A stretch of DNA of 64,000 nt from positions 627 through 64,626 of the forward strand of contig CBDAQL010000004.1 in NCBI GenBank assembly GCA_965199045.1. The letters are read 5' to 3'. The notes beneath the pieces are model-generated. The model was not told the DNA's origin. It did no database searches and was given only the letters and a program-made list of their open reading frames with translations. The translations under genes were made by a program, and so were the position numbers. How positions within the stretch are numbered: position 1 is the first letter of the stretch; every line of letters begins with the position of its first letter. The DNA is from Acidocella sp. Lineage in GTDB: Bacteria > Pseudomonadota > Alphaproteobacteria > Acetobacterales > Acetobacteraceae. Below, one piece after another: positions 35,733 through 51,941 of the stretch.

Positions 35733-35889
35733 AGGGGGATGGGGCGAGTTCAGACGCGACGCGCGCCCAGGCCCGCTAATTGGAACTCAGCACTGCCCGA
35801 GGGGAATTGTTTCGATCAGCCGCTCACCGTAGCGGGTTGTTATTGATCTCCAGCGATGAGCGCGCGTAAAAATCGCCCGTCCAGATCGT

Positions 35890-36726
35890 CTATGTTTTGC
35901 GGTAGACTTTGATGTATTGAATCTGCATGACCTGCGGATCAGTCAAGCCAACGATCGGCCATCCGCCGCCTAGAGCCAGATCGACGATGACAGCCATGGG
36001 TTGGCGAAATTCCGGCAATGTTGGTGTCGACCAATAGGGAATGCGGTTAAAGTAGTAGGTGGTCCGCTGCGGTTCGATTAGGATTCCGAAATTGTTAAAC
36101 TGGCTCGACAGAATACCCCTGGATACGCTTACCACATGGCTGCGGCTTAAATGATCGACATTGTTTTTCCAAAGATGTTCGGTTGACCGGTAACTGGCTG
36201 GAAAAGCACCATAGAATTCGATGACGTCGAGCTCTGGCGCGGTTCCGGTATCGCCGGCGCTGACTAGCCAGAAGGCCGGCCAGACGCCGTGGCCAGCAGG
36301 CAGTCGCGCCCGCATTTCGAAATAGCCGTATTCCTGGGCGAACCCGCGCGGACCGACACCCTTGGCAGATTTCGAGCATAATAAACCTGAGTGCCATTGT
36401 CCTTTCGAATCTTTGTAGGCGGTAATGTTCAGGCCGTTCGGGCCCCGCGAAAACGCGCTACCGGGGCCTGGATTATCAAAGACGGCGTCACCGAAATCAC
36501 CGTTCCAGGGCGTATGGGCGATCCATCGCGTGGCCGGCCCGGTGGCGGAAATATCAAGGTTGGCAAAGTCTTCGTTGAAGCTGACTGTATAGTCTGAGAG
36601 ATCCAGTGCCGGCTTTTGCGCCCCGGATGCTGACATAGACGCATAACCTACCGCGACCGTGATGGCAGCTGCTATAGAAATTACCGATAAACGCCAGCGA
36701 GAAATCCGAACCTTTGCATGAGACAT
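35890..36726 (-). CDS. Secreted GH16 glycoside hydrolase (ExsH-like glycanase)
   Basis: Signal peptide; YGYFEMRARLP, GVWPAFWL and catalytic ELDVIE (ExDxxE). Confidence 0.88.
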   Translation of the reverse strand: MSHAKVRISRWRLSVISIAAAITVAVGYASMSASGAQKPALDLSDYTVSFNEDFANLDISATGPATRWIAHTPWNGDFGDAVFDNPGPGSAFSRGPNGLNITAYKDSKGQWHSGLLCSKSAKGVGPRGFAQEYGYFEMRARLPAGHGVWPAFWLVSAGDTGTAPELDVIEFYGAFPASYRSTEHLWKNNVDHLSRSHVVSVSRGILSSQFNNFGILIEPQRTTYYFNRIPYWSTPTLPEFRQPMAVIVDLALGGGWPIVGLTDPQVMQIQYIKVYRKT

Positions 36727-36838
36727 CGAAAAATCTCCTCAACACTGCTTTCTCACGCTAACTGCGCGGTGGCGGTGCCGATCGCTTCGCCTGGTATACC
36801 AATAAATTTACCATAATATTTATTGTGTCGCGCGGCGG

Positions 36839-37822
36839 CTAGAGAATTGCAGACGATCTGACCAGTCTTTCAAACGTTTGTTGATAATAAATTTTGCGGT
36901 GGAGAAATAGTTTGTCGCGCAGTTTTCGTAACCGGGCCCGCGTTTGTAACGCATCAAGCTGTTGCCGGCTATATTGCCGGATCGGGAGACCCAGCTTCTG
37001 CAACGGCGCGAAGGCATTGATATAGGTTTCGTGATAAGGATGAAAAGGCACCGTCCAGGGCTTATCTCCACCGGCAAAATGCAAAATCTGCGGTGGCATC
37101 TTGCATTTCATTCCCCACTCCAAATACGAGGTTGCAAAATTCCATTGCGGAGCAAGACGTACCCAACGGTGCTTCGCAACCGCGTTTAAAGCACTCTGGT
37201 CATGGTAGAGACAGCGCGCGGTATTATTAATAAAATAGGTGAACGCATCTGCGCAGACATCCCGCCAGGTCTGGGTGTCGGCGAGCAGGACGCCAGAACT
37301 GAAATAGCCGGCGTCGTGATCAAGCCCAAGGCCATCGAAATAGGCGCGGGTTTGCCGGCCGACTCGACCAAGCTCACGACGACGGAAATAATACCGATCT
37401 TCGGCGGCGCCGATAAAGCCCTGCGGCAGCGAAGCTTCAAGAAGTTTTAGAGGGTCTCCCACCGGCCAGGTATCACCGTCAAGATATAGGATGCGCTTGT
37501 AGATGTCCGGAACCACATCGAGCATGAAAAATCGGCCGAGCGCTGAGATTGGAACATGCGTTTTGTTGAATGCTTGATGATTGAAGCCGCTGAAATAATC
37601 GAAGCTGAGGTGATCCAGATGAATGCTATGGGATGATGCAAACCCCGCCATACGATTAAACGCGTCCACCGGAATATTGGTCGTGACGATCCTGACATCG
37701 GCGCGTGCGGGGGGCACCTTTCGCCTAATTTCTAGAGCGGCGGCCAATGTCGGTAATGCAAAGTCCAGATCGGTCACAAAGAAAATCGCGCGGTCCGGAC
37801 CGGATTTTTTGATTACGTTCAT
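36839..37822 (-). CDS. Glycosyltransferase family 8
   Basis: RILYLDGD, YFSSGVLL, HDQSALN and ILHFAGGDKPW. Confidence 0.88.
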   Translation of the reverse strand: MNVIKKSGPDRAIFFVTDLDFALPTLAAALEIRRKVPPARADVRIVTTNIPVDAFNRMAGFASSHSIHLDHLSFDYFSGFNHQAFNKTHVPISALGRFFMLDVVPDIYKRILYLDGDTWPVGDPLKLLEASLPQGFIGAAEDRYYFRRRELGRVGRQTRAYFDGLGLDHDAGYFSSGVLLADTQTWRDVCADAFTYFINNTARCLYHDQSALNAVAKHRWVRLAPQWNFATSYLEWGMKCKMPPQILHFAGGDKPWTVPFHPYHETYINAFAPLQKLGLPIRQYSRQQLDALQTRARLRKLRDKLFLHRKIYYQQTFERLVRSSAIL

Positions 37823-37976
37823 GGTATATGATTTGCTCGGTTTTGGATGATCAGATCAAGCCGGGACGAAGCCATCGCGTATCATCAATTAGAAGGATAG
37901 GCCTAGTATTATCAAATATAGGTATTACCCATTTGTTCGCTTGCGCACGCCATGGAATCGTCTCAGGAACGCTAGT

Positions 37977-39458
37977 ATGAGGAAGGGGCAGCAAGTCGAG
38001 CTACCAACCCGCCCAAGTGGTCGAAGAATTGCCATCGGGGCCGGTGCATTTGGGGCTGTGAGCATTTTCAAAATGCTATTGCAGGTCTTGACGCTGCCGT
38101 TGATGGCGCGGCTGCTCGGCCCATCGGAGTTTGGCCTCTATTCGATCGCGATCCCTATCGTTGCGGTTGTCGGTATGATGTCCGATGGCGGCCTGGGAAT
38201 GTCGTTGATGAAGGAGCCGGATAATTCTCCGGTTTGGTCGACGGCATTTTGGACCTTGCTGGGTGCCGGTATCGTGTTGGCCCTATCATTGACCGGGGTA
38301 GGATTTGTGCTGGGCGACGTCCTGCACCAACCGCGGCTGCCAGGTATCATTGCCGCGTTATCCGTGACCATTATACTGATGACGATCTCGGTGACGCCGG
38401 TTGCTAGACTGGATCGTCAAGGGCGGATCAGTATTGGAGCTGTTGCCGATCTGGTCGGCAATCTCCTTGGCGTTTGTCTCGGCATTACGCTGGCATTCCG
38501 TGGCGCCGGCGCCTGGAGCCTGGTGGGTCAATATGTGACGATCTTTTTGGTGCGTGCCGTAGTGCTGAACAGCGCGGCATTCAAAATGCCGGCGTTTGAG
38601 TTTCGGCCTTCGACACTTCGTTCTCACTTCGCGACGGGCGGGCTGATTGTAAGCGTGCGAATGTCCGATTTCGCCGGAAGAATGGTTGAAAGTGTTTGCT
38701 TGGGCCGTGGTCTTGGAACGGCCGCGGTCGGCATCTACGCGTTTTCTAATCAGCTGCCTAGGTTTTTCTGTGAATCGTTTTCCAATCCACTTTGGCTGGC
38801 CCTTTATATCCGGGCGCTAAGTAACGAGCATGCCAACATCGCCGCTTTACACCGGCAATTTTCACGGTTGCTAGGGATGATCTTGTTTCCGGCAGCAGCA
38901 TTGTTCCTGGTGACCGCGCCGAACCTGGTGCCGTTATTCCTGGGCAAAAAATGGTCGGTCGCGGCGCCCTTGCTGCCGGTTTTTTTGGTAGCCTACGCGA
39001 TGAATGTCATTGCATCCCAGGGCGGTGCGTTGCTGCTGGCTGATGATCGCTATCATCGCCAGCTTTGGTGTACGATCGGGCTCAGTATTGCGAAAATCGT
39101 TGTCGTCTGTCTTGGCCCCTGGATCGGGTTGGCTGGCGTTGCATATGGCGTCTCTTGCATGCACGCAGTTTATGCGGCGGCGATGATCCTAGCATCCGCA
39201 ACGGTCAGCGGCACCAGTCCGCTATTCCTCATCAGAAGCCTGGTTGGGCCTTTGGCCGCCAGCGTGTTTTCCGGAGCGGTGGCGTGGGCATTTCTGCGCT
39301 TTTGGGGCGATAATTTGGTGGGAGTGGCGTTGTGCCTCAGCGTCGGAATTCTGGGCTACGGTGCTGCCATCATTCTGTTCGATCGCAAGTACCTGGTCTC
39401 CGATGTCGCGGTTCTAAGGAATGTAATTGGGCGGCGGCGAACACTGCCCGCCGGTTGA
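37977..39458 (+). CDS. wzx: Wzx-type flippase (PST family)
   Basis: LMARLLGPSEFG and LGTAAVGIYAF; 12-14 TM segments. Start refined to ATG 37977. Confidence 0.85.
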   Translation: MRKGQQVELPTRPSGRRIAIGAGAFGAVSIFKMLLQVLTLPLMARLLGPSEFGLYSIAIPIVAVVGMMSDGGLGMSLMKEPDNSPVWSTAFWTLLGAGIVLALSLTGVGFVLGDVLHQPRLPGIIAALSVTIILMTISVTPVARLDRQGRISIGAVADLVGNLLGVCLGITLAFRGAGAWSLVGQYVTIFLVRAVVLNSAAFKMPAFEFRPSTLRSHFATGGLIVSVRMSDFAGRMVESVCLGRGLGTAAVGIYAFSNQLPRFFCESFSNPLWLALYIRALSNEHANIAALHRQFSRLLGMILFPAAALFLVTAPNLVPLFLGKKWSVAAPLLPVFLVAYAMNVIASQGGALLLADDRYHRQLWCTIGLSIAKIVVVCLGPWIGLAGVAYGVSCMHAVYAAAMILASATVSGTSPLFLIRSLVGPLAASVFSGAVAWAFLRFWGDNLVGVALCLSVGILGYGAAIILFDRKYLVSDVAVLRNVIGRRRTLPAG

Positions 39459-39623
39459 GCCAAGAACCGCGCGCGATGCGCGATTCCAGCCGTTACCAAA
39501 GGCGTGCCATGGCATTTTTTAGAGAGTCATGTTCGCTGAATAGTGGAGGAGAAAGTCGTCCGAGCCCGGTCTACGCCGAGAACATCCAGAAACTTATAAA
39601 CCTGGCTGGCGCCGGATTGATTG

Positions 39624-40775
39624 TTATTGCGCGCATAACTCTCTGAATAATTCGACATGACGCTTGGCGTAGTGGCGCGAGCTGAGGCCGGCTTCGGTGA
39701 GCCTGCGGCGGGAGTTTGCAATCAACGACTGCTGCAGCTCCGGATTGCGCGCGAGATGGCGTATGGCGCTCGCCATTTGCCGGGAATCGCCCGGATCGAC
39801 GTAGAGAACATCTTCTTCTTGAAAATAGGCTTCCAGGCCTCCCACATTCGTACTTATAACGGGCACTCCAAGAATGGCGGCTTCCTCGATGACAGTGATG
39901 CCGGAGGCATGGAAGTTCGGCTGTAGCGGGAGCACGAGCATGTCTGCCCACGCGAACTGGGAAAGCAGATCATCGTTATGCTGGACTTTAAGGACGCTGA
40001 TATTATCGTATTCGCCGCCTAATTTGTACTTGGTTGTAAGCAGACGAACTTCTATGTCTGTTTTGTCGCCGGTTGCGTCAATTAAAGTGGCCCAATCCCG
40101 ATGGCGGTCATTGCCAACTGATAGGACGCGGATTTTGCGCTCCTTGAATACTGGGCGCGGCAATGCGGGAAAGTTTGTGTTGATACCAAATTTTATGAAT
40201 TCGACGCGTGTCCGCGGGAATAGCGCAGCCGCGGATCCGGCGTTGAAGGGCGACAGGAATGTAAGAATATCCGCTTTGGCTAAAAGTCTCGTATAGAGCG
40301 CTTTGCGGAAATAATTGAGACGATGCCATTCATCGATCAACCATATCACCTGCCCTATAAGTTTCGGACGAGCGGCATGTTTGGAAATTGTCAACAGCCC
40401 AAGGACGGCGAGGGTTTGGGATTCCGTATGGGTCCACACCACGTCGGAGCGCAAGATCTCCGCGCGATTTCTCCAAGCATGGATAAAGTCGAAACCCAGG
40501 AAAAAACGCAAACCATAGCGCATGATTTTCTGAAGCGCATTTTCGGGATGGTCTTTCGAATAGATGACGGTGGCGCCAAATTGTGCTGCGTGATGGTAAC
40601 CGTAGGGGAACTCTTCGTTTAGGCCAAGAATTTTGCCGGCGCGCCAGTTTTGTTGCCACGTCCTCGCGTCATAGCCGTAGGCCACGTGAACATAGGCATT
40701 GAAGGGCGCCGCAGGCGCTTCGACAGGATCGGCAGACAAAGCCGCCAGTTGCTTAAGTTCTTGGAGGGCGGACAT
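39624..40775 (-). CDS. Glycosyltransferase family 4 (GT-B)
   Basis: SVGNDRHRD and ASGITVIEEAAILGVPVIST (EX7E-type region). Confidence 0.85.
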   Translation of the reverse strand: MSALQELKQLAALSADPVEAPAAPFNAYVHVAYGYDARTWQQNWRAGKILGLNEEFPYGYHHAAQFGATVIYSKDHPENALQKIMRYGLRFFLGFDFIHAWRNRAEILRSDVVWTHTESQTLAVLGLLTISKHAARPKLIGQVIWLIDEWHRLNYFRKALYTRLLAKADILTFLSPFNAGSAAALFPRTRVEFIKFGINTNFPALPRPVFKERKIRVLSVGNDRHRDWATLIDATGDKTDIEVRLLTTKYKLGGEYDNISVLKVQHNDDLLSQFAWADMLVLPLQPNFHASGITVIEEAAILGVPVISTNVGGLEAYFQEEDVLYVDPGDSRQMASAIRHLARNPELQQSLIANSRRRLTEAGLSSRHYAKRHVELFRELCAQ

Positions 40776-40948: not shown

Positions 40949-42367
40949 TCAGTTGGAAAGCTCACTTTGCGGGCCGGCTATCTGCCCATTGAAATTCAGG
41001 ACCTCGATTAAGGCGTCGATGTCCCGCGTTTCCGTGCGGCCATTTGGGACACAGATCCGAATGACATCCTCGCCCTCGAAGCTGGCGAGAGAAATCCAGA
41101 ATTGACCGGAACCGACAATTTCCTCGACAATTTGCTGGACCGGTTTGAAGCCTTCAGGCGGTGTGACGCATAACACGCCCAGCGCATTCGGATTTGCAGT
41201 TTTCCAATGTGTCGCTTCCAGACCGGTCCGCAGAAGATTGATCAGCATCAGCGTGTGTTCGACATGCTGAGCGTAGCCTTGCCAGCCTGATACCGACAGG
41301 TTCATAAAAAGCCGCAATCCTGAAAATCTGCGCGACCACAAAACTGAATTAGCATAGGGGTCTTGGGGCGACCCGCCGGCGGGCATAAAGGGCGCTGAGG
41401 TTCCAAATACCCGGTTCAGCACACCGGTCCTTTTGCTGATGAACATACCGCACGCCATAGTGGCCGCAAACCATTTATGTGCGTCTATGGTTACAGAGTC
41501 AGCAAGCTCAATCCCGGCCAGTTGAACGCGAGCGTGGCTGGATGCAATGGCAGCCGCCCCCCAAGCCGCATCTACATGAAACCATGCGCTGGCTTCGGCG
41601 GCAATATTTGCACAGTCGGCCAGCGGGTCCACCATGCCTGCTACCGTGGTACCCGCGGTACCCACGACCATTACTGGCAGCAGGCCGTTTTCAACATCGC
41701 TCGCCACCGCGTCGCGTAGTGCATCGCTGCTCATGCGGCCATGCCCATCCGTTTCGATCATTCGTACTGCAAGACGGCCGATACCTGCCTGGTGCGCAAT
41801 TTTATGCCAGGCGGCATGCGCATCTTGGGATATATATAGCGCCGGCGGCGCCCGGAACGCGCGGGCGCCATTTTGGCTGAATGCAGGGTTGAGTTCAGTT
41901 AGGGCACAGATCAGGGCAGTAAAATTTGCCTCGCTCCCACCATTTGTGAAATGCCCCGTACTGTCTAAGGGAAATCCAAGCTGACGGGCGACCTGCGCGA
42001 TGACATGGGCTTCAAGTGCGACGGCGGCCGGCGACGTGCTGGCCGAAGCCAGTTGGAGGTTAAATGAGGCGATGATTTGTTCCGCCAGCAATGAGGGTCC
42101 GGCGGGTGCTGCGTTGAACAGGCCAAAATAACGCGGATGCGTGATTTGGACATTGCCGTCCCGCATCCGCTCAACCAACCAGGGCAACAATTTCTGCAGT
42201 TGGACCGGTGCTTTAAAATCGAAATCTGAAAGTTCTCCGGCAAATTTTCGCGCGTCGAACTCCGGCGCCACTCGCCCATGCCGCATTTGAAGATGCATAT
42301 CCTCCAGCAACTCGCGGAGGAACTCTTCCATCAGTTTCTGGTCCTTCGGATCGGGAAACAAAGCCAT
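40949..42367 (-). CDS. Group II PLP-dependent amino-acid decarboxylase
   Basis: HPRYFG, TNGGSEAN, GTAGTT, WFHVDAAWG and the PLP lysine in DSVTIDAHKW. Start taken as ATG 42367. Confidence 0.88.
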   Translation of the reverse strand: MALFPDPKDQKLMEEFLRELLEDMHLQMRHGRVAPEFDARKFAGELSDFDFKAPVQLQKLLPWLVERMRDGNVQITHPRYFGLFNAAPAGPSLLAEQIIASFNLQLASASTSPAAVALEAHVIAQVARQLGFPLDSTGHFTNGGSEANFTALICALTELNPAFSQNGARAFRAPPALYISQDAHAAWHKIAHQAGIGRLAVRMIETDGHGRMSSDALRDAVASDVENGLLPVMVVGTAGTTVAGMVDPLADCANIAAEASAWFHVDAAWGAAAIASSHARVQLAGIELADSVTIDAHKWFAATMACGMFISKRTGVLNRVFGTSAPFMPAGGSPQDPYANSVLWSRRFSGLRLFMNLSVSGWQGYAQHVEHTLMLINLLRTGLEATHWKTANPNALGVLCVTPPEGFKPVQQIVEEIVGSGQFWISLASFEGEDVIRICVPNGRTETRDIDALIEVLNFNGQIAGPQSELSN

Positions 42368-42813
42368 GCGCAAATTTTTTGTAGTCTCACAATTCACGTT
42401 AGCGTCTCGCAATGGTGGTGGCGGCTGGCTCGGCGCCGTGTTCTGGCGCCCGTGATAATGCGGCAGTTTTGTTGTTATGCGGCGCGTATCCAGCGGAGAT
42501 GGCCACGATATCAGGCAACATAAAAAGCTCCCGGCGCTTTAGTTGGATGTAAGTCTGGTTGAAACAATGAAGCTGGATCCACGAGATACGACGAAATGCG
42601 ACGTTATTGATGCCGGAAATTGTCGGGTTTCTTCAACTTGACCAAAAGGAGAGGTTTCACGGCAATTTTATCTTAAGAGGTAGGCTTATACCCATCGGAC
42701 ATTCTCTCTAGACGAAAGGCGAACCGAGCGTCCTCAGCCTCTGCGGACCGTGAGAACGTGCGCTCTAGATCCTGCATCGCAGAGGTAACTTCGCAGATTG
42801 ATGATACCGTAGT

Positions 42814-42860: not shown

Positions 42861-44498
42861 CTAGGAAGCCTGTTTCAATAGTATTTGCTCGCAGCAGAGC
42901 AGACGGTATTTGAACGCGTCACGGAATGCGAGCAGGCAAGCACCCATTATGTCTGCCGCCACTCCGACTGTCGCCCAATGGTCCAACGCGGGCATTTCGA
43001 CGTCATGGCATTCGATAACGACGCGGGTCATCGGCGCCTCGCCTTCTCGCCGTCCCAGGTTGTGAGTTCGACAATGCAGCATGCGTAAGCCGGACAGTTC
43101 CGGAAAGCTTGGGCTTAACACGGCGTGCAAGGCCGCCTCCATCGCAGCCAGCAAATCCTTGCGTGTCATATCCGCCTTCTTGAACTCGCCGCCGATTTTG
43201 GCTTCGATGGCGGCACTGCAAAGTACGGAGACTTCGTTTTTATTTTTCCAGCCACGCATTTCGGTGACGCGGAAAGAAAGAATATCGAAAAGTGCCGGCT
43301 TGTCATCCAGCGTTTCGCGTGCGAGCAATTCGAAACTGGCTTCGGCGCCATCGAAACTCCAGCCTTCGAATTCGAGCATTTTTACCTGTTCGACAAGCTT
43401 TGCGAGTCGCGGATCATCGGCGGATAGGATGATGCCCAGTTGGGCCAAACGATTAAGCAGGTTGGCGCGGCCCGCCTGGTTGGAGACCAAAATACGACGC
43501 CGATTGCCAACCAACTCTGGCACAACATGTTCATAGCTGCTGCTGTCGCGGGTAACTGCCGCGGCATGCAAACCCGCTTTATGCGCGAAAGCGCTTTCGC
43601 CGACATATGGGGCATGTCTATTGGGGACACGGTTCAACCGCTGGTCCAGCGCCCGGCTTATTTCAGTGAGGCGACGCAGCCCGTCCTCACTCACACCGGT
43701 TATATATCCGAGTTTCAGGATCAAGGTTGGGATCAATGTTGTCAGGTTGGCGTTGCCGCAACGCTCGCCTAATCCGTTCAACGTGCCCTGGATCATCCTG
43801 GCGCCGGCAGCTACCGCTGCGAGGCTGCCAGCAACCGCGGTTTCTGTATCATTATGCGTGTGAATGCCAATGGCGGCTCCGGGCAGGGCGGCCACGACCT
43901 CACTGACAATGCGGGAAATCTGCTCGGGGAGGGTGCCGCCATTGGTGTCGCATAACACCAGCCACGCAGCGCCATCCGCTAGCGCACGCTGCAGGCAGGA
44001 TAAGGCATATGCTGGATTGCGTAGATAGCCGTCGAAGAAATGCTCGGCGTCGAACAAGACCTCGTGGCCGAAGCCGGCGGCCTCCGCTACGGCGCTGCCG
44101 ATCAGGTCCAGGTTTTCCAAAGGCGTCACGCCAAGCGCAATTTCTGCGGCAAGATCGGAGGCTTTGCCAACCAGGCAAATTGTCGCCGTTCCGGCTTTTA
44201 GTACGGCACCGAGACCAGGGTCGTTGGAGGCGCTACGCCCTGGTCGTCGCGTTGCGCCAAAGGCTGTTAGCCTGGCATGACGGAACTGCGGAGGATTAGC
44301 GAAAAACGCGTCGTCCGTTGGGTTGGCGCCTGGCCAACCAGCCTCAATGTAATCGATACCGAGTTGATCTAGTTCGGTTGCGATTATCTGCTTGTCCAAG
44401 GTGGAGAAGTCGACCCCTTGTGTCTGCGCGCCGTCACGCAGCGTCGTATCGTAAAGAACGATGCGGCGCGCTGCCGGCAGCATGGCGGCTTTGACCAT
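42861..44498 (-). CDS. cimA: Citramalate synthase homologue (LeuA/CimA, DRE-TIM family)
   Basis: LYDTTLRDGAQ, YIEAGWPGANP, LCDTNGG, IHTHND, GERCGNANL and AFAHKAGLH; starts 3 nt after the NRPS stop. Confidence 0.85.
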   Translation of the reverse strand: MVKAAMLPAARRIVLYDTTLRDGAQTQGVDFSTLDKQIIATELDQLGIDYIEAGWPGANPTDDAFFANPPQFRHARLTAFGATRRPGRSASNDPGLGAVLKAGTATICLVGKASDLAAEIALGVTPLENLDLIGSAVAEAAGFGHEVLFDAEHFFDGYLRNPAYALSCLQRALADGAAWLVLCDTNGGTLPEQISRIVSEVVAALPGAAIGIHTHNDTETAVAGSLAAVAAGARMIQGTLNGLGERCGNANLTTLIPTLILKLGYITGVSEDGLRRLTEISRALDQRLNRVPNRHAPYVGESAFAHKAGLHAAAVTRDSSSYEHVVPELVGNRRRILVSNQAGRANLLNRLAQLGIILSADDPRLAKLVEQVKMLEFEGWSFDGAEASFELLARETLDDKPALFDILSFRVTEMRGWKNKNEVSVLCSAAIEAKIGGEFKKADMTRKDLLAAMEAALHAVLSPSFPELSGLRMLHCRTHNLGRREGEAPMTRVVIECHDVEMPALDHWATVGVAADIMGACLLAFRDAFKYRLLCCEQILLKQAS

Positions 44499-44501
44499 GG
44501 C

Positions 44502-47330
44502 CTATACGACCGCAGGCGCGGGTGCTGGGGCGCCGGACAATCTTTCCGATTGCGTTGCTTGCGATAGGTGACTGGTCTGCTGGCTTGCGGCCCGCGAATT
44601 GATCGTGCAGGTCAGATCGTTTGCAGGCACTTTGGCCAACGCGTCGTGACGCTTGAGAAGGACCTCGATCTGTTCTGATAAGAAAACGGCATGCTGATCG
44701 GTCAAAATTGAAAGATGATCACCCTCGGATTGTATAATTTCAAAGCCGCCACTGAAGAGATTGCGCCATCCATGGGCGCGGTCGTAGCCAGGCAGCATAT
44801 CCACATCGGCCTTGGCGCGTATGAGCACGCCCTTCGCATCGAGCGAGGTTGGCCGCCACCGCGCGCCGATCAGTTTCGCCATTCGATAGACGATCCACAT
44901 CCCGACCGGATTACTTTTGCTATCGAAATAGCCGGAGGGCCGGTCGGCCTCGGTCTCGTTCCGGGCGGTGTGCTGCCGGCGGTGACTGATGATATCGAGA
45001 CGATATCCTATGGCGGTCGGAATAGACGATACCTGCCAGCAAATAAGGCGCCAGGCCTGCGCGGCGGCCTTGCCAAGACGCGCCATGGAGGCACCCGCAT
45101 CGGCAGGCCGCAGGGATAGGCCGCTGATGGTTTTCCATCCGCTGCGAATGACGGTTGCAACCTTGCTCAACCCGCTCCAGGTAAAGGCCCGCGAGTCAAT
45201 AAGGAGCAGGAAGGCAGCGTGCCCGCCGGCGCGCTGCAACGCATGCGCGGCTTCAAATGCGATTTTTCCGCCGAGCGAATAACCGACGATAACGCAAGGC
45301 GCCTTGCCGGCGTGGTCGATTAGCGCGCGGCCGAAGGGTTCGCTAAGCTCCTCCATGGTCGGCATATTCTTTTTATCCGCGATCCCGACCGCCTCGATCC
45401 ATTGCACCGGCAGCAATGCGTCGATTAGAAACACGCTCCGATTTTCAGCGATCAACTCGGCCAGCCGATATTCGTCTGGCCGCGCACCCATGAAATAGAT
45501 CGGCAAGCCGTTATTGCCACTTTGCAGAGGGATCACCTGCGTCATACCCGTGCTCAAGCGGTGCCGGGATAGCTCCGCCGCCAGCGCCGCGATGGTTGGC
45601 CGCTGGAAGAACACCGGTATACTCACACGCATGTTCAACGCCTTGTTGATTTCGTTGATCATGCGCAGCGCTAGCAGCGAATGACCGCCTAAATCGAAAA
45701 AATTATCCTGCGGCTCAACCTCGGGAAGCTCCAGCATTTCCATCCAGATGCCGGCGAGCAGTTGCTCAATGGGGGTGACGGGTTTGGCATATTCCGTGTT
45801 TGCTTGCGCCACCCGCAGCTGCGGTGCCGGCAGCGCCTTGCGGTCAACCTTGCCGCTTGGCGTTAAAGGAAAAGCGATCAGCGGCACAAACGCAGCGGGG
45901 ATCATGTAGCCCGGGAGCCGTTCGCCAAGGAACTGACGAAGCTCCTGGGTTGAGATATCCTGGCCGTGGGCCGGCACGAAATAAGCGGCGAGATTTTGCA
46001 TTCCGTCGGTCCCGGCATAGGCGATGGCGACGCTTCGTTCGATATCCGGATGGCTTAGCAGAACACTCTCGATCTCCCCGAGCTCGATGCGATGACCGCG
46101 TATTTTGACCTGATGATCGATGCGTCCCAGAAACTCCAGCTTGCCGTCGCCCAAACGTTTTACCAGGTCGCCGGTGCGGTACATGATCGCCCCCGGCTCG
46201 GCGAAGGGGTCTTTGATGAAGCGTTCGGCATTCAGCTCCGGCCGGTTGAGATAGCCGCGTGCAACCGCGCCGCCGCCGATATAAAGCTCGCCCGGAACCC
46301 CCAATGGGACCAGCTGGGACGCGCTGTCCAACACGTAAAAGCGGGTATTAGGGATGGGCCGTCCGATGACCACTGGGCAGCCTGTTTCTACCTTGGCGAC
46401 CGCGGACCATACGGTGGTCTCGGTGGGTCCATACATGTTCCATAGCGTGCGGCAACGGCTGAGCAGCTGTTCGGCCAGGACCGTACCCCAGGCTTCGCCG
46501 CCGCAAAGGATTTTCAGATCCGCGGCGCCTTGCCAACCGGCGTCCAGCAGCATCTGCAAGGTGGCCGGGGTTGCCTGCATAACGGTGACGCCGGCGTCTT
46601 CGATCAGCTGCCGCAATGCGCCGCCATCACGCGCGGTTTCGCTGGAGGCAATAACGGCGGAGCCGCCAGTGCTCAGTGGCAGGAAAATCTCCAGCAGCGA
46701 GATATCGAAAGCTATGGTGGTAAGCGCCAGCATTCTGTCGGTGGCAAGAAATCCAGGCCGGCGCTGCATCGCGGTAAGCATGTCGACGACACCGCCGTGC
46801 TTGACCTGAACGCCCTTCGGGTTGCCGGTCGAGCCGGACGTGTAAATCACATAGGCAAGATTATCGGCTGTGAGATCGCTGGACGGCGCATCACCGTTTG
46901 GCGCCGAAGCAGCCTGCAGGTGCTGCTCCGCAGCGCTATCAAAAATATCGTCCACCAGCAGCAGCCGGGCCTTGCTTGCCGGCAATAAGCGTTGCGATTT
47001 GCGTTCGGTAAGCACGGCCAGCGGTTTTGCATCTTCCAGCATGTAGGCGAGACGCTTATCCGGCAAAGCCGGGTCCAGCGGCACATAGGCGCCACCGGCC
47101 TTCAGCACACCCAGCATGCCGGCAATCATGTCGGGCGACCGGTCGATACAGAGCCCGACCAACGTTTCCGGTCCCACGCCAATCGCGCGCAATTCCTGCG
47201 CGATCGCTTCGGCGCGCTGGTTCAGCGCGCGATAGCTCAGCCTGGACGATCCAAAGCTTAGCGCCTCGGCATCGGGGGTACGTGATAACTGAGCTTCGAA
47301 CAGTCTATGAATAAGCTTCATCTTCTTCAT
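44502..47330 (-). CDS. NRPS A-PCP-TE module (glycine-type A domain)
   Basis: YTSGSTGNPKG, AFDIS, YGPTE, YRTGD, QVKIRGHRIELGEIE, PSGKVDR; PCP LGGHSL; TE GYSLGG. Confidence 0.93.
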   Translation of the reverse strand: MKKMKLIHRLFEAQLSRTPDAEALSFGSSRLSYRALNQRAEAIAQELRAIGVGPETLVGLCIDRSPDMIAGMLGVLKAGGAYVPLDPALPDKRLAYMLEDAKPLAVLTERKSQRLLPASKARLLLVDDIFDSAAEQHLQAASAPNGDAPSSDLTADNLAYVIYTSGSTGNPKGVQVKHGGVVDMLTAMQRRPGFLATDRMLALTTIAFDISLLEIFLPLSTGGSAVIASSETARDGGALRQLIEDAGVTVMQATPATLQMLLDAGWQGAADLKILCGGEAWGTVLAEQLLSRCRTLWNMYGPTETTVWSAVAKVETGCPVVIGRPIPNTRFYVLDSASQLVPLGVPGELYIGGGAVARGYLNRPELNAERFIKDPFAEPGAIMYRTGDLVKRLGDGKLEFLGRIDHQVKIRGHRIELGEIESVLLSHPDIERSVAIAYAGTDGMQNLAAYFVPAHGQDISTQELRQFLGERLPGYMIPAAFVPLIAFPLTPSGKVDRKALPAPQLRVAQANTEYAKPVTPIEQLLAGIWMEMLELPEVEPQDNFFDLGGHSLLALRMINEINKALNMRVSIPVFFQRPTIAALAAELSRHRLSTGMTQVIPLQSGNNGLPIYFMGARPDEYRLAELIAENRSVFLIDALLPVQWIEAVGIADKKNMPTMEELSEPFGRALIDHAGKAPCVIVGYSLGGKIAFEAAHALQRAGGHAAFLLLIDSRAFTWSGLSKVATVIRSGWKTISGLSLRPADAGASMARLGKAAAQAWRLICWQVSSIPTAIGYRLDIISHRRQHTARNETEADRPSGYFDSKSNPVGMWIVYRMAKLIGARWRPTSLDAKGVLIRAKADVDMLPGYDRAHGWRNLFSGGFEIIQSEGDHLSILTDQHAVFLSEQIEVLLKRHDALAKVPANDLTCTINSRAASQQTSHLSQATQSERLSGAPAPAPAVV

Positions 47331-50300
47331 CCACCATCCAGGCTGATAGGAGTTGCTGCCGTTCCGCCTCGGTCAGCATGGGCAATTCATTTAGTTTTTG
47401 GTCCGGGTCGGCGGCGGCAGCTTGCAAAAGCACCGTCAGATGGCCCAGCAGACGTTCGATCCGGTTGGCGTCGAACAGATCCGTGCTGTATTCGACTTCG
47501 GCCGTGATTTTGCTTCCCGCATCGATGAGGTTGATCGTCAAATCGAATTTCGAGGTTTTGGAATGCGCCAGCAATGGCTCCGTTATAAGCCCGGGGAAGC
47601 CAATGAATTGCGGGTGGTCGTCGCGATCCCGCCAGTTCAGCATAACCTGAAAGACCGGCGCGTAACTAAGATCCCGTTGCGGCCGAAGGGCTGCGACAAC
47701 CTCACTGAACGGCGCCGCGCGATGGGAATAGACAGCCGCAACATCGTGACGCACCTGCGCGAGGAAGTCACGGAATGTGGTGCTGGCATCAGGCTGGGTG
47801 CGCAGCACATGGGTTTCGAGTAGAAAACCGATTAATGGGCGCAGTTCCGGCAACTCGCGATCGGCAATGGGGATGCCGATTAGAATATCGTCCTGCATGG
47901 TATAACGGTACATCAGCGTGCTCAGGCCCGCCGCGAATACGGCAAACATTGTTGCCTTGAGCTGCCGGCATAATTCTCGAACATCTGCCGCCAGCGCCGG
48001 TTCTAATTCAAACAGCTGCTTATGGCCGCGGAAGGAGCAGATTGCCGGGCGCGGCCTGTCCGTTGGTTGATCGAGCAATGCAGGAGAGCCGCGCAAACGG
48101 ACGCTCCAGAAAGCGAGCGCGTCATCGAAGTTCTGTTCTCGCTGCCACACCGCGTAATCGCCGTGCTGAATTGGCAAAGGCGGCAGCGCCGGAGGCTCGC
48201 CTTTTATGCCAGCTTCATAGAGCGCCCCGAGCTCACGCCAAAGAACACCGATCGAGGCGCTATCGCAAATAATATGGTGCAACATCAAAATCACAGCGTG
48301 ATCGTCAGTGCCGATTTCCACGATTGTGACCCGCAGCCCCGGCTCGACACCGAGATGGAATGGCCGGACCGGCTCCTCCGTCAACAAAGCCGCTAATTTG
48401 GCGTCGCGTTGATGTGCCGGCAGCTGCAACAGGCTGACCGTTTTTAATTTGATCGGCCAGCTTTCATGAACTTCGGCTTCCGGCCGGCCTTTCTTCAGCG
48501 CGATCGTGCTACGCAAAATTTCGTGGCGTTCGATAATGGTATTGAACGCATCCTGCAGCGCCGCGATGTTCAACTTGCCCTTGAGCCGCACCGCTTCGGC
48601 CTCGTTATATACCGGCGCTCCGGTGTTGAATTGCGCCATGAAAAAAATGCGCTCCTGAGCTATTGTGAGCGGGCAGGAGCGGCCGCGTGCGGCTACCGGA
48701 ATGCGTTTTTGAACAGCAAGCGGACTGGGTTGGGGCGAAGCCGGGTGTGCTGGTCTGTTCAGATGCTTTCCAATAACCTGAGCCAGTTGGCCAACTGTCG
48801 GGTTTTCGAAGAAATCGGTCAGTGAAAGCACTACCGATTGGCGGTCGCGCAACCGCGAAAGGAACTGGATCGCCTGCAAGGATTGCCCGCCACAGGCGAA
48901 AAAATTGGTCTCCGGATCAATATCCAACGGGCCCAGAAGTTCCTGCCAAAGCTCACCGACCAGGCTTTCAAGTTGCCGGCGGCCTGCCTGCTGCACCGCT
49001 GACGTTGCTGGTGCGTCTGTTGCTTGCGCGGCTGTTGCCTGCGCGTCTGTTGCCTGCATGCCCGGACCAACCTGCTTTGCATGCCTGCCGGCGCGCTGTT
49101 CCGCGTCTTCCACCAGATGCAGGCGCTGGATTTTTCCGGAAGGTCCCTTCGGTAGATTTGGGACCAGGTAAATACGCGTCGGCGTTTTGAAAAAGCCCAG
49201 ATTATGCTCACAATGCGCGAGCAATTCGCGTTCATCGCAGTTGGCCCCGGCCCGCAGTACTGCGTACGCCACCAAGTCCTCGCCGACATACCGGTCCGGA
49301 ATGCCGACGGCGGCTGCTTCCAACACGGCCGGATGCATTTCCAGTACTTCATCGATCTGCTTCGGCGCGATGTTCATGCCGGCCTTGATGATCAATTCTT
49401 TGACCCGTCCGATCAGGAACAGGTAGCCGTCTTTGTCTTGATAACCGAGATCGCCGGTATGCAGCCATCCCTCAGGGTCCAGCGCCGCCGCGGTGCCGAC
49501 GGGGTCATTGTAATAGCCTTGCATCATCCCATCGCCGCGAAAAAGAATGTCGCCGGTGGCGCCCGCCGGTAGCAGGCTACCGGCGCGATCGACGATTTTT
49601 ATTTCAAAGCCCCAGGGGAGCCCCGGCGATCCTATCTTGTTCTGCCCCGGAGGTGCTGGATTTGAGAAAACATTGCCGGCTTCTGAGCATCCCATCGCCT
49701 GGATCAGCGGCAGATCAAACTTTACAATGAATTCGCGATGCAGGGACGGGGATAACGGGCCGGAGGAACTCCGAATAAAACGAATGCGGCTAAATGCGGC
49801 ACTTCGGCTGTCTGCCCGTGGATCTTTCCAATCCAGCAGCTGAGAGACAATGGTGGGCACCACGGCCGACCAGGTACAACCGTAATCGCCAAGCAAATCC
49901 CAATATTCAGCGATGGCGAAGCCGTGCGGAACCACTACCGATCCACCGCTCATCAACGTCGGGATCAATGTCACGCATTCCGCATTGATATGGTACATCG
50001 GTAGCACCAGGAGAGAGCGATCGGATCGTTCGAGCTGGTGGGCCCGGATAGAGTTTCTGCCATGCGCCAGAATGGACTTATGGGTGTGTACCGCCCCTTT
50101 GGGCTGGCCGGTGCTTCCAGACGTATAAATAATCATCGCGGCATCATTCGCCTCGATGGCTGGCGCGTCTCTCTTCGAATGACCAGTGCTGCCTAAGCCG
50201 GCAGGCCTATCAACACTGGCCGGCACAACGATGATTTGCGATTTGATAAGTTTAAGGACTTCCGCGATCAGATCTTGGTATTTTTCAGAGACGAATACAA

Positions 50301-50697
50301 CGCTCGCTTGACAATGATCCAGCGTATAGGCCAGCTGTGAAAGGCCGGCGCGGACGTTCAAAGGCACTACGACAAAACCGCAATACATGGCGCCCAGAAA
50401 CAGCTGGGCGGTATGCACGCCATTATCCATCATCAGCGCGATCCGGGCCTGCGGTTCCAAGCCAAGGCTAAGAAGCGACGGATAAAGCAGATCAGCTTGT
50501 TGCTTTAGTTCGTTGAAAGTAAGTTGATGTCCGGTCTCAGGGCTCACTAAAAAAACATCGTCGGGCTGCAATGTCGACATTGCATTTAGTAATTGCGGTA
50601 CCGTATCAAGATGTTCTATGCCCGCTGCAGTCATGGGGTGTCTCTTCATTGTCCGATAACGATTTTGCTGGATAAGCGGCAACTTAACGCTGTGCAA
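47305..50697 (-). CDS. Acyl-CoA-ligase-like adenylation-PCP-condensation starter protein (start may be ATG 50634)
   Basis: YTSGSTGQPKG, LPMYHINA, GWLHTGDLG, GRVKELIIKAGMNI, PSGKIQR; PCP CGGQSL; C domain LTIAQER..HHIICDS..SKFDL. Confidence 0.92.
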   Translation of the reverse strand: MHSVKLPLIQQNRYRTMKRHPMTAAGIEHLDTVPQLLNAMSTLQPDDVFLVSPETGHQLTFNELKQQADLLYPSLLSLGLEPQARIALMMDNGVHTAQLFLGAMYCGFVVVPLNVRAGLSQLAYTLDHCQASVVFVSEKYQDLIAEVLKLIKSQIIVVPASVDRPAGLGSTGHSKRDAPAIEANDAAMIIYTSGSTGQPKGAVHTHKSILAHGRNSIRAHQLERSDRSLLVLPMYHINAECVTLIPTLMSGGSVVVPHGFAIAEYWDLLGDYGCTWSAVVPTIVSQLLDWKDPRADSRSAAFSRIRFIRSSSGPLSPSLHREFIVKFDLPLIQAMGCSEAGNVFSNPAPPGQNKIGSPGLPWGFEIKIVDRAGSLLPAGATGDILFRGDGMMQGYYNDPVGTAAALDPEGWLHTGDLGYQDKDGYLFLIGRVKELIIKAGMNIAPKQIDEVLEMHPAVLEAAAVGIPDRYVGEDLVAYAVLRAGANCDERELLAHCEHNLGFFKTPTRIYLVPNLPKGPSGKIQRLHLVEDAEQRAGRHAKQVGPGMQATDAQATAAQATDAPATSAVQQAGRRQLESLVGELWQELLGPLDIDPETNFFACGGQSLQAIQFLSRLRDRQSVVLSLTDFFENPTVGQLAQVIGKHLNRPAHPASPQPSPLAVQKRIPVAARGRSCPLTIAQERIFFMAQFNTGAPVYNEAEAVRLKGKLNIAALQDAFNTIIERHEILRSTIALKKGRPEAEVHESWPIKLKTVSLLQLPAHQRDAKLAALLTEEPVRPFHLGVEPGLRVTIVEIGTDDHAVILMLHHIICDSASIGVLWRELGALYEAGIKGEPPALPPLPIQHGDYAVWQREQNFDDALAFWSVRLRGSPALLDQPTDRPRPAICSFRGHKQLFELEPALAADVRELCRQLKATMFAVFAAGLSTLMYRYTMQDDILIGIPIADRELPELRPLIGFLLETHVLRTQPDASTTFRDFLAQVRHDVAAVYSHRAAPFSEVVAALRPQRDLSYAPVFQVMLNWRDRDDHPQFIGFPGLITEPLLAHSKTSKFDLTINLIDAGSKITAEVEYSTDLFDANRIERLLGHLTVLLQAAAADPDQKLNELPMLTEAERQQLLSAWMVDEEDEAYS
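49000..49059. repeat. Four imperfect 15-bp tandem repeats encoding the (QATDA)-type linker between A and PCP
   Basis: Units tgacgttgctggtgc / gtctgttgcttgcgc / ggctgttgcctgcgc / gtctgttgcctgcat. Confidence 0.75.
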
Positions 50698-50886: not shown

Positions 50887-51576
50887 TCATGAGATCGGTA
50901 AAATAAGCCCGGAGTGTATGATATCACCGATTACGACAAAACTGCCCGCCAAGTGGAACGGATCAAAAAAAGGCGTTGATAATGAAGGTTTTGGAATGGC
51001 GCGGAACGATCCGGACGTGATGTCGATGGCAGTGACTTCAACATCCGTGAAGTCGAACCGGAATTTAAGTAAAGGATACAGGCATTTGAAAATCGTCTCC
51101 TTGACGGAAAAAATGATCGTCGTCAGCAATGGTTCGCTGATCGGTAGCCTTGATAGGTTTTGGTATTCGAGGGGCGTTGTGATCAGCGGCGCTATCTCTT
51201 TGGCGGTTGCGGATGACATTAGTGTTTCAGTGTCCAGGCCAAGGCTTCTTGCGCGTGACTCCCAGGCAACAGCTGCAAAGGCGAAGCCATTTGAATGTGT
51301 TATGGATCCGACAATACCAGACGGCCATACCGGACATCCGTCTTGCCCCGACGCAACGTTTAGCGCCGCTGCGCCTAATCGGATCAGCGCTTCCTGCGCA
51401 CAAAGTCGGCCGCTCACGTAATCCGCCTGTCGCCGCCCGACAGCATCTTTAAGCCGGGACGGCAGTGGGACTTCCGCCGGTAAAGTTTTTAATTCCCAAT
51501 ATCTTATACCGGTATGGACGACGAAGTCCGGAAACAGCTTTGGAATATCGCTTGGTGATAGGCTCAACTTGTTCAT
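50887..51576 (-). CDS. 4'-phosphopantetheinyl transferase (EntD/Sfp-type)
   Basis: RRQADYVSGRLCA, PVWPSGIVGSITHS, LGLDTE and FSVKETIFK. Start refined to ATG 51576. Confidence 0.9.
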   Translation of the reverse strand: MNKLSLSPSDIPKLFPDFVVHTGIRYWELKTLPAEVPLPSRLKDAVGRRQADYVSGRLCAQEALIRLGAAALNVASGQDGCPVWPSGIVGSITHSNGFAFAAVAWESRARSLGLDTETLMSSATAKEIAPLITTPLEYQNLSRLPISEPLLTTIIFSVKETIFKCLYPLLKFRFDFTDVEVTAIDITSGSFRAIPKPSLSTPFFDPFHLAGSFVVIGDIIHSGLILPIS

Positions 51577-51941
51577 CGTATTTCGCTTCAAACGAGCAGA
51601 TATTATTATAGCTGCAACCGCATGTTTTAAGACCCATCTCGCTGATGCGCGATAAATGAAGGAGAGGCAAGGGGTGCCGGGCGCGCGGCCCGCGCCATCA
51701 AAGCTACCAAACCTTAGGTCCGGCCTGCGCGCCCATCGCATCAATCACCGGTGCCCATTAAGTATGCTTTGCCTTGCACGCGGCCGTCTGTTTTGCGCAG
51801 ACAATCTACTTGTTTTGCGCGCTCAATCTGCCGGAGTCGCAGTAATACTTTTAGGCAGCTTGCCTGCCATTATCGAATACGTAGGCTGATTAAGCTTCTT
51901 GGTAAATCGCGAAACCTATTCAGTTCGGAATTCATACCGTA

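What the first reader, a model, noticed from the sequence alone, without database searches (positions are those of the whole stretch)
48960..50697. Starter domain is a CoA-ligase-like enzyme, not an amino-acid A domain
Seen: it lacks the FDxS amine-binding Asp (LPMYHINA instead) and has RFIRSSSGPL..PLIQAMGCSEAG..SNP, recalling small-dicarboxylate ligases of the oxalate-CoA ligase/AAE3 type, with a variant of the YGxTE motif. It is fused to PCP-C. Inference: it loads a small carboxylic acid such as citramalate or a derivative.
Basis: partly seen in the sequence, partly recalled or inferred. Interest (0 to 1): 0.6.

Follow-up and report, generated by a model that had tools for sequence, protein, structure and literature searches.

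The report
Small-acid ligase domain starting an NRPS
The first domain of this small peptide-synthetase line is not an amino-acid activator but a relative of the ligases for very small anionic acids (sulfoacetate, oxalate, malonate). It most likely loads a small polar acid, plausibly citramalate made by the gene two doors down, onto glycine inside a slime-polysaccharide gene cluster.

Summary
Residues about 44-522 of the 1109/1130-aa protein at 47305-50697(-) form a complete ANL adenylating domain without the amine-binding Asp, fused to PCP and C.

The AAE3 comparison holds. Oxalyl-CoA synthetases are the best solved-structure matches by about 45-70 bits, and the AF2 model matches MatB and the oxalyl-CoA synthetases best.

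It is not an oxalate ligase. Of the AAE3 oxalate pocket only Ser289 and the catalytic Lys are kept, and both His residues are Asn.

Its closest relatives are 46 stand-alone bacterial ligases (42-47% identity). Thirty-four of them sit next to SauS, often with Xsc and TctABC, so they are SauT-type sulfoacetate-CoA ligases.

The NRPS-fused domains form one clade (SH-aLRT 100) across five or more phyla. All share a more polar pocket and every locus read lies in an exopolysaccharide cluster.

The only recurrent neighbour, in 13 of 38 loci, is a 2-alkylmalate synthase recruited twice: CimA-type here and truncated LeuA-type in Acidobacteriota.

Best reading: the domain loads a small polar or anionic acid, most plausibly citramalate or another 2-alkylmalate, and the C domain joins it to glycine. 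The substrate is inferred, not shown.

The scan noted the same kind of line on other DNA (e1-3949391, e1-2837645).

The parts
49132..50568 (-). ANL (acyl-CoA-ligase-type) adenylating starter domain, aa 44-522. Pocket residues: H236 I237 N238 / S311 S312 / G336 C337 / N342 / K522.
   Evidence: Pfam PF00501 and PF13193. PDB phmmer best hits are oxalyl-CoA synthetases. AF2 model pLDDT 86; Foldseek best hits are MatB and the oxalyl-CoA synthetases. Pocket mapped onto AtAAE3 residues.
48772..48960 (-). Carrier domain (PCP) with GGQS phosphopantetheine site, Ser606
   Evidence: PF00550, E 1e-14. S606 is invariant in 42 homologues.
47347..48675 (-). Condensation domain with HHIICDS active site
   Evidence: PF00668, E 5e-87. 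Best PDB matches are elongation-type C domains: Txo2, Txo1, TycC6 and the fuscachelin PCP-C.
47305..50634 (-). Whole gene: ligase-PCP-C, 1109 aa from ATG 50634 (1130 aa if read from TTG 50697)
44502..47330 (-). Second NRPS gene, A(Gly-type code DILQLGMVWK)-PCP-TE. Its start overlaps the end of the ligase gene by 26 nt.
   Evidence: Pfam, and TIGR01733 at 453 bits. Code residues read from the translation.
42861..44498 (-). Citramalate synthase-type 2-alkylmalate synthase. Its ATG lies 3 nt after the NRPS stop (TAGGCCATG).
   Evidence: TIGR00977 at 527 bits, above the cut-off of 450. Junction read. A second IPMS/CimA-type gene lies elsewhere in the genome.
50887..51744 (-). Sfp/EntD-type phosphopantetheinyl transferase upstream of the NRPS
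   Evidence: PF17837 and PF01648. The same position is kept in the loci.
40949..42412 (-). Group II PLP-dependent decarboxylase, 448 bp downstream of the synthase. It is not part of the conserved cassette in other loci.
   Evidence: PF00282. Absent from the NRPS-type loci.
29452..40775 (.). Surrounding exopolysaccharide genes: LuxR/GerE regulator, Wza, Wzc-like, GH16, GT8, Wzx flippase, GT4
   Evidence: Pfam

Best explanation
The N-terminal domain is a carboxylic-acid-activating ANL enzyme of the lineage that holds sulfoacetate-CoA ligase (SauT), oxalyl-CoA synthetase and malonyl-CoA synthetase, recruited as the loading domain of a two-gene NRPS. It adenylates a small polar, probably doubly anionic or hydroxylated, acid and puts it on the thiol of its own PCP instead of CoA. 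The PCP is primed by the PPTase encoded upstream. The C domain then forms an amide with glycine, which is loaded by the next protein (A-PCP-TE), and the TE releases or transfers the N-acyl-glycine. The most likely acid is citramalate, or another 2-alkylmalate, made by the tightly coupled citramalate synthase gene. The product probably decorates or accompanies the exopolysaccharide whose genes surround the cassette. Shown here: the domain class, its lineage, the clade-specific pocket, the Gly-type code and the gene context. Inferred: the acid, the direct PCP loading and the fate of the product.
For: Domain class and lineage:
- ANL domain, PCP and C are present with all core motifs, and there is no FDxS Asp.
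- PDB phmmer gives oxalyl-CoA synthetases at 275, 252 and 246 bits. 4CL scores 206, FadD13 195, MatB 194 and NRPS A domains about 135.
- The alignment to the oxalyl-CoA synthetases is collinear, with no FAAL-type insertion.
- Foldseek on the AF2 model (pLDDT 86) puts RpMatB, AAE3, LsOCS (TM 0.81) and Pcs60 on top.
- The nearest relatives are 46 stand-alone ligases at 42-47% identity.
- Of these, 34 have SauS directly upstream, often with Xsc and TctABC. SauS scores 701 bits against a cut-off of 600. Xsc scores 885 and 956 against 676.
- That is the published sulfoacetate operon layout (PMC10413351).

Clade and pocket:
- The NRPS-fused domains form one clade with SH-aLRT 100 and a stem of 0.59.
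- All of them read SS / MG[S/C][S/T] / GN at the pocket positions, where SauT-type ligases read AS / [M/F]G[L/M]T / A[P/Q] and AAE3 reads CS / YAMT / TH. The changes make the pocket more polar and roomier.

Context:
- A 2-alkylmalate synthase is the only recurrent neighbour, in 13 of 38 loci. It is CimA-type in this window, L001, L022, L080 and the P0006 locus. It is a truncated LeuA-type of 377-385 aa in the Acidobacteriota loci.
- Here its ATG lies 3 nt after the NRPS stop codon.
- The only amino-acid A domain in the line carries a Gly-type code, so the synthase product has no other obvious entry point.
- The C domain resembles elongation-type C domains, not lipo-initiation ones.
Against: - No biochemical data exist, and the pocket was read from sequence alignment, not from coordinates.
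- Two thirds of the loci have no alkylmalate synthase within about 10 kb.
- The pocket signature does not differ between loci with CimA-type, LeuA-type or no synthase. The synthase could therefore serve another step.
- Of 10 genomes whose locus lacks the synthase, 3 show no CimA above the cut-off anywhere. They are MAGs, one of which lacks even LeuA, so this neither supports nor refutes the idea.
- The nearest assigned relatives use sulfoacetate, not a hydroxy-dicarboxylate.
- The tree was rooted with very long outgroup branches, so whether the clade is nested in SauT or sister to it is not settled.
Confidence: 0.55

Rival explanations
1. The domain loads one of the acids used by its nearest relatives: sulfoacetate, malonate or oxalate. 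The product would be N-sulfoacetyl-, N-malonyl- or N-oxalyl-glycine, and the alkylmalate synthase would serve something else.
For: The closest clade is SauT-type by context. The best solved matches are oxalate and malonate ligases. One source names a 52%-identical ligase-PCP protein 'sulfoacetate-CoA ligase'. Most loci lack an alkylmalate synthase. Ser312, equivalent to AAE3 Ser289, is invariant.
Against: Both oxalate-pocket His residues are replaced, and positions 311, 337, 341 and 342 differ from every SauT-type sequence. A long stem separates the clades. No SauS, Xsc, Tct or other sulfonate gene lies in any NRPS-type locus. Alkylmalate synthases are far more common next to the NRPS than chance would allow. 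By my rough estimate chance gives about 1-2%, from roughly 3 such genes per genome, against 34% seen.
Confidence: 0.2
2. The domain loads another small polar monocarboxylic acid from central metabolism, such as lactate, glycolate, pyruvate, glycerate or 3-hydroxybutyrate.
For: The pocket is polar, with Asn, Ser and Cys in place of His and Met. The cassette occurs in many loci without a dedicated acid-supply gene. From general knowledge, polysaccharides commonly carry such acyl groups.
Against: This does not explain why two different alkylmalate synthase subfamilies were recruited beside the NRPS. All functionally assigned relatives act on acids with a second anionic group.
Confidence: 0.15
3. 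The domain is a fatty-acid or aryl-acid loading domain, as its automatic names suggest ('long-chain fatty acid-CoA ligase'), and the product is a lipo-glycine anchor for the polysaccharide.
For: The best NCBIfam model is PRK06187 'long-chain-fatty-acid--CoA ligase' at 384 bits. Sources name the homologues this way. G336 and S/C337 could in principle open a deeper tunnel.
Against: The PRK06187 score is below that model's cut-off of 476, and the same model matches the SauT-type ligases equally well, so the name carries no weight. There is no FAAL insertion, and FadD13 and 4CL score 70-80 bits below the oxalate ligases. The clade-specific pocket changes are all towards polar residues. The C domain does not resemble lipo-initiation C domains.
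Confidence: 0.1

Closest known systems
[quoted passage not shown]
   Same: Nearest relatives, at 42-47% identity over the whole ANL domain. They share YHIN, the R-F-x-R-S-x-S strand, the MG.TE variant of YGxTE and SNP. The substrate is a very small acid with a second anionic group.
   Different: SauT is a stand-alone CoA ligase next to SauS, Xsc and TctABC. The domain here is fused to PCP-C, lies in an exopolysaccharide locus and forms a separate clade (SH-aLRT 100). Its pocket reads S311, S/C337, G341 and N342 where SauT has A, L/M, A and P/Q. The SauT assignment of the relatives rests on gene context, not on an assay of those proteins.
Oxalyl-CoA synthetases AtAAE3 (5IE0-3), LsOCS (6QJZ) and yeast Pcs60 (8AFF)
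   Same: Best solved-structure matches by sequence (E 1e-80 to 5e-72) and among the best by fold. Ser289 and the catalytic Lys are kept. The alignment is collinear.
   Different: Identity is about 31%. The oxalate-pocket residues H216 and H319 are Asn, A313-M314 is G-C/S, V215 is Ile and C288 is Ser. The acceptor is a PCP, not CoA.
Malonyl/methylmalonyl-CoA synthetase MatB (Rhodopseudomonas palustris, 4FUT/4GXR)
   Same: Top Foldseek match of the model (E 2e-48). It is also a small-dicarboxylate ligase.
   Different: Only 28% identity and 194 bits by sequence. It is a stand-alone CoA ligase.
Acyl-ligase (AL/FAAL) loading domains of NRPS and hybrid lines, such as PvdL module 1 or the AL-T-C-A(Gly) start of bacillaene synthase (from general knowledge)
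   Same: The same logic: an ANL domain loads a non-amino acid on a carrier, and a C domain acylates the first amino acid. In this family the first amino acid is glycine, and some members continue with PKS modules.
   Different: Those domains belong to fatty-acyl or other ANL branches. No described loading domain of the SauT/oxalate-ligase branch was found in four literature searches.
Regulatory-domain-less IPMS/CimA copies recruited to specialised metabolism (from general knowledge: plant MAM synthases, acylsugar IPMS3)
   Same: The neighbouring synthases are extra copies. Those in Acidobacteriota are LeuA cores cut after about residue 385.
   Different: These are bacterial, linked to an NRPS, and their product is unknown.

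Membership tests
ANL superfamily, acyl-CoA-ligase-type (non-amino-acid) adenylating domain | AMP-binding N- and C-terminal subdomains with core motifs and the catalytic Lys | tested here: met
   PF00501 E 1e-75 and PF13193 E 4e-16. Motifs and K522 read. K522 is invariant.
NRPS amino-acid A domain | Asp235 (FDxS) that binds the alpha-amino group, and a match to the amino-acid adenylation model | tested here: not met
   The position reads Y235-H236. TIGR01733 is not among the top matches, whereas the next protein scores 453 bits. NRPS A domains in the PDB score only about 135 bits.
Oxalyl-CoA synthetase (AAE3/Pcs60) | Closest overall similarity among solved ANL enzymes | tested here: met
   275, 252 and 246 bits against 206 or less for other classes. 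Foldseek top group.
Oxalyl-CoA synthetase (AAE3/Pcs60) | Oxalate-binding Ser289 and His319, said to be specific to this family (PMC8905533) | tested here: not met
   Ser is kept (S312), but His319 is N342. H216 is N238 and A313-M314 is G336-C337. This holds across the clade.
SauT sulfoacetate-CoA ligase | Stand-alone ligase encoded with SauS, and usually Xsc and a sulfoacetate transporter | tested here: not met
   None of the NRPS-type loci has SauS, Xsc or Tct, whereas 34 of 46 stand-alone relatives have SauS.
SauT sulfoacetate-CoA ligase | Falls inside the SauT-type clade and shares its pocket signature | tested here: not met
   Separate clade with SH-aLRT 100 and stem 0.59. Fixed differences at 311, 333, 334, 341 and 364, plus 337 and 342. 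The root is uncertain.
Fatty acyl-AMP ligase (FAAL) loading domain | FAAL-specific insertion in the N-terminal subdomain and closest similarity to FadD-type enzymes | tested here: not met
   The alignment to the oxalate ligases is collinear without such an insertion. FadD13 scores 195 bits against 275.
Lipo-initiation (starter) C domain partner | C domain closest to starter-type C domains | tested here: inconclusive
   The best PDB matches are elongation-type C domains (Txo2, Txo1, TycC6, fuscachelin). Starter-C structures do not appear at E below 1e-10. No dedicated subtype classifier was available.
   Support comes from context only: an alkylmalate synthase in 13 of 38 loci, from two subfamilies.

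The most novel reading that the evidence does not exclude
A cassette conserved across phyla (PPTase, SauT/oxalate-ligase-type starter-PCP-C, Gly module with TE or PKS extension, optional feedback-free alkylmalate synthase) makes N-(citramalyl or other 2-alkylmalyl)-glycine units. These units are attached to, or released with, a Wzx/Wzy exopolysaccharide. That would be an NRPS-made anionic decoration of a polysaccharide and a new substrate class for NRPS loading domains.
Probability: 0.3. Interest if true: 0.7.

Novelty: new variant of a known kind. Interest (0 to 1): 0.55.

Why it matters
Loading of non-amino acids by ANL domains is well known. This branch of the superfamily (sulfoacetate, oxalate and malonate ligases) has not, as far as four literature searches show, been described as an NRPS starter. 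The clade is large, conserved at 50-80% identity across Alphaproteobacteria, Acidobacteriota, Verrucomicrobiota, Planctomycetota and Binatota, and always sits in exopolysaccharide loci. Its acid and product are therefore probably a common but uncharacterised feature of soil-bacterial slime. The fixed pocket signature gives a simple sequence marker for the clade. The twice-recruited alkylmalate synthase gives a concrete, cheap substrate hypothesis to test. One cultured carrier, Terracidiphilus gabretensis S55 (L011), is available for that.

Tried and rejected
- **Literature.** Four searches for an NRPS linked to citramalate or isopropylmalate synthase, exopolysaccharide, exosortase or acyl-CoA-ligase loading found nothing relevant. 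A search for citramalyl amides in polysaccharides also found nothing.
- **CimA elsewhere in the genome.** I asked whether genomes whose locus lacks the synthase carry a CimA elsewhere. Seven of 10 do, against 4 of 14 control genomes. This is confounded by phylogeny and MAG incompleteness, so it is inconclusive.
- **Pocket against synthase type.** There is no correlation between the pocket variants (S/T at 338, V/I at 343) and the type or presence of the synthase.
- **Group-specific positions.** The scan found no gain or loss of a charged residue that would point to a sulfonate or carboxylate site.
- **Promoter and terminator scan.** Counts did not exceed the shuffled expectation.
- **Automatic names.** 'Long-chain fatty acid-CoA ligase' was rejected as evidence. 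The model behind it is missed by this protein, and the sulfoacetate-operon ligases score just as close to it.
- **Three-dimensional pocket.** It could not be measured, because model coordinates are not exposed.
- **Reference enzymes.** Characterised ANL sequences (SauT of C. necator, AAE3, MatB) could not be put into the tree, because no tool returns them as sequences.
Full report
**1. What is at the coordinates**

The minus-strand ORF 47305-50697 translates without stops into 1130 residues from a TTG. The identical protein in the public collection has 1109 residues. That places the likely start at ATG 50634 (sequence read).

Pfam finds four domains:
- AMP-binding at aa 44-396
- AMP-binding_C at aa 448-522
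- PP-binding at aa 580-642
- Condensation at aa 675-1117

The finding's span (48960-50697) is therefore the ANL domain plus the linker up to the carrier domain. The core adenylation motifs and Lys522 are intact. Where amino-acid A domains carry the amine-binding Asp (FDxS), this protein reads Tyr-His.

**2. Neighbours in the window**

On the same strand, in order:
- an Sfp/EntD-type PPTase (50887-51744)
- the ligase-PCP-C gene
- an A-PCP-TE gene (44502-47330), overlapping the previous gene by 26 nt
- a citramalate synthase-type gene (42861-44498; TIGR00977 at 527 bits, cut-off 450)
- after a 448-bp gap, a group II PLP decarboxylase and a GT4 glycosyltransferase

The synthase ATG lies 3 nt after the NRPS stop codon.

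The A domain of the second gene carries D-I-L-Q-L-G-M-V-W-K at the ten specificity positions, read from the translation.

Around the cassette lie Wza, a Wzc-like kinase, GH16, GT8, a Wzx flippase, a LuxR/GerE regulator and an AT3 acyltransferase. This is a Wzx/Wzy exopolysaccharide locus.

The genome has one other IPMS/CimA-type gene on another contig.

**3. Which kind of ANL enzyme**

Sequence search against all solved structures:

| Match | Bits |
|---|---|
| Oxalyl-CoA synthetase LsOCS (6QJZ) | 275 |
| Oxalyl-CoA synthetase AtAAE3 (5IE0) | 252 |
| Oxalyl-CoA synthetase Pcs60 (8AFF) | 246 |
| 4-coumarate ligase | 206 |
| FadD13 | 195 |
| MatB | 194 |
| NRPS A domains | about 135 |

The alignment to the oxalate ligases is collinear, without a FAAL-type insertion.

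An AlphaFold2 model of the domain (pLDDT 86) matches RpMatB, AAE3, LsOCS (TM 0.81) and Pcs60 best.

The 'long-chain fatty-acid-CoA ligase' name comes from NCBIfam PRK06187. This protein scores 384 bits against that model's cut-off of 476. The sulfoacetate-operon ligases described below score 397-422 on the same model. The name carries no weight.

**4. It is not an oxalate ligase**

The AtAAE3 oxalate pocket is V215-H216, C288-S289, A313-M314, H319 and K500. Ser289 and His319 are said to be specific to oxalate ligases (PMC8905533).

In the alignment these positions are I237-N238, S311-S312, G336-C337, N342 and K522. Only the Ser and the catalytic Lys are kept. Both His residues are Asn, and the Ala-Met pair is smaller.

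In 42 ligase-PCP-C homologues, N238, S311, S312, G336 and K522 are invariant and N342 is at least 90% conserved.

**5. The family and its nearest relatives**

The protein belongs to a large family at 50-79% identity. Members occur as ligase-PCP-C, or fused on to A-PCP, with or without a TE. Split forms also exist, as ligase alone or ligase-PCP.

A scan of species-representative genomes returned 33 NRPS-type loci. They come from Alphaproteobacteria, Acidobacteriota, Verrucomicrobiota, Planctomycetota and Binatota. Among them is the cultured Terracidiphilus gabretensis S55.

The same scan returned 46 stand-alone ligases at 42-47% identity.

A maximum-likelihood tree of the ANL domains gives the following:
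- The NRPS-fused domains form one clade (SH-aLRT 100, stem 0.59).
- This clade groups with a gammaproteobacterial set of stand-alone ligases (SH-aLRT 100).
- The outgroup branches are very long, so whether the clade is nested in the stand-alone ligases or sister to them is open.

In L035 and L036 the stand-alone ligase sits in the order TctABC, SauS, ligase, Usp, Xsc:
- SauS: NF047625 at 701 bits, cut-off 600
- Xsc: TIGR03457 at 885 and 956 bits, cut-off 676

A SauS homologue lies directly upstream of the ligase in 34 of the 46 stand-alone loci, often with Xsc and Tct genes. No NRPS-type locus has one.

This is the published layout of sulfoacetate degradation with the AMP-forming ligase SauT (PMC10413351). 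The closest functionally assignable relatives are therefore SauT-type sulfoacetate-CoA ligases. The assignment rests on context.

**6. A clade-specific pocket**

| Group | 311-312 | 335-338 | 341-342 |
|---|---|---|---|
| NRPS-fused sequences (all) | SS | MG[S/C][S/T] | GN |
| SauT-type ligases | AS | [M/F]G[L/M]T | A[P/Q] |
| AtAAE3 | CS | YAMT | TH |

Sources.

A scan for group-specific positions adds 333-334 (QA against ET) and 364 (F against N). It shows no charged-residue switch.

The changes make the pocket more polar and roomier. This argues for a conserved substrate that is different from that of the relatives but still small and polar. It argues against a fatty or aryl acid.

The C domain resembles elongation-type C domains (Txo2, Txo1, TycC6, fuscachelin PCP-C) rather than lipo-initiation ones.

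**7. Context across the family**

Every locus I read lies among polysaccharide genes: Wza, Wzc, Wzx, Wzy, glycosyltransferases, CE4 deacetylases, UDP-glucose dehydrogenase and exosortase EpsH.

Clustering all ORFs of the NRPS-type loci gave only one recurrent neighbour, an HMGL-like Claisen condensase.

Counting the loci fetched later, it is adjacent in 13 of 38 distinct loci. A genome holds about three such genes. By my rough estimate, chance adjacency would be 1-2%.

The synthases are of two kinds, only about 30% identical to each other:
- Full-length CimA-type in this window, L001, L022, L080 and the P0006 locus. TIGR00977 scores are 406-553 bits.
- LeuA-type catalytic cores cut at about residue 385, in Acidobacteriota. 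NF002086 scores are 574-587 bits, aligned to positions 4-384 of 516.

So two independent recruitments of a 2-alkylmalate synthase lie next to the same NRPS. Its only amino-acid module is glycine-type.

Where no synthase is nearby, the acid could come from the primary pools of the isoleucine or leucine pathways.

A test of this was inconclusive. Seven of 10 such genomes have a CimA above the cut-off elsewhere, and the rest are MAGs.

**8. Mechanism proposed**

1. The PPTase primes both carrier domains.
2. The ANL domain adenylates the acid and thioesterifies it to its own PCP. This is the same chemistry as its CoA-ligase relatives, with the Ppant arm in place of CoA.
3. The C domain acylates Gly-S-PCP on the second protein.
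4. The TE hydrolyses or transfers the N-acyl-glycine. In some relatives two PKS modules extend it first.

The fate of the product, whether a decoration of the polysaccharide or a free molecule, is not shown. The PLP decarboxylase is particular to this window and may supply an amine, but this is a guess.

**9. Odds**

| Claim | Odds |
|---|---|
| Carboxylic-acid starter domain of the SauT/oxalate-ligase lineage | about 0.95 |
| Small polar or anionic acid rather than a fatty or aryl acid | about 0.8-0.9 |
| Citramalate or another 2-alkylmalate specifically | about 0.45-0.55 |
| Sulfoacetate, malonate or oxalate | about 0.2 |
| Another small polar monocarboxylate | about 0.15 |
| Fatty or aryl acid | about 0.1 |

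**10. Novelty**

ANL loading domains are a known kind. This lineage as an NRPS starter appears undescribed in the searchable literature. So does its link to exopolysaccharide loci and to alkylmalate synthases. The scan itself noted the same kind of assembly line on other DNA (e1-3949391, e1-2837645). I class it as a new variant of a known kind.

Noticed in passing
L035:5345-13907 and L036:5449-15353; also 32 further stand-alone loci among L033-L079: Complete sulfoacetate-degradation operons (TctABC, SauS, AMP-forming ligase, Usp, Xsc) in Gammaproteobacteria, Burkholderiales and relatives. Desulfobacterota versions keep TctA/TctC next to the ligase but have no SauS within reach.
   Followed up: partly
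window 54479-62325: A second, unrelated ANL ligase (59242-60843, 24-28% identical). It lies among a BphC-like extradiol dioxygenase, an alpha/beta hydrolase, two SDRs, an acyl-CoA dehydrogenase-like protein and an amidohydrolase. This looks like a catabolic cluster, not part of the NRPS.
   Followed up: partly
L082:10001-24959 (P0027 locus): A relative in which ligase-PCP-C-A-PCP is followed by two PKS modules (KS-AT-KR-ACP, then KS-AT-ACP-TE) and a truncated LeuA-type synthase. It sits inside an exopolysaccharide locus with a CE4 deacetylase and an asparagine synthase-like gene.
   Followed up: partly
window 40949-42412: A group II PLP decarboxylase. Its best matches are only weak (DABA decarboxylase and PanP, 136-153 bits). 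It lies 448 bp downstream of the synthase and is absent from the other NRPS-type loci. Substrate unknown.
   Followed up: no
window 50634-50697: The ORF's TTG start at 50697 is probably not used. Gene callers start the identical protein at ATG 50634 (1109 aa).
   Followed up: yes
window 30408-31850: A 480-aa ORF with no Pfam match next to the GerE/LuxR regulator. The P0010 locus has an unannotated 437-aa gene in the same position beside GerE, so it may be a conserved unknown of this polysaccharide locus.
   Followed up: no
window 24993-29173: A hydantoinase/oxoprolinase A and B pair directly upstream of the polysaccharide locus.
   Followed up: no
(P0122-P0241): The family occurs in many fusion states: ligase alone, ligase-PCP, ligase-PCP-C, with A-PCP added, and with TE added. 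Some short forms may be frameshifted gene calls in long-read MAGs.
   Followed up: no
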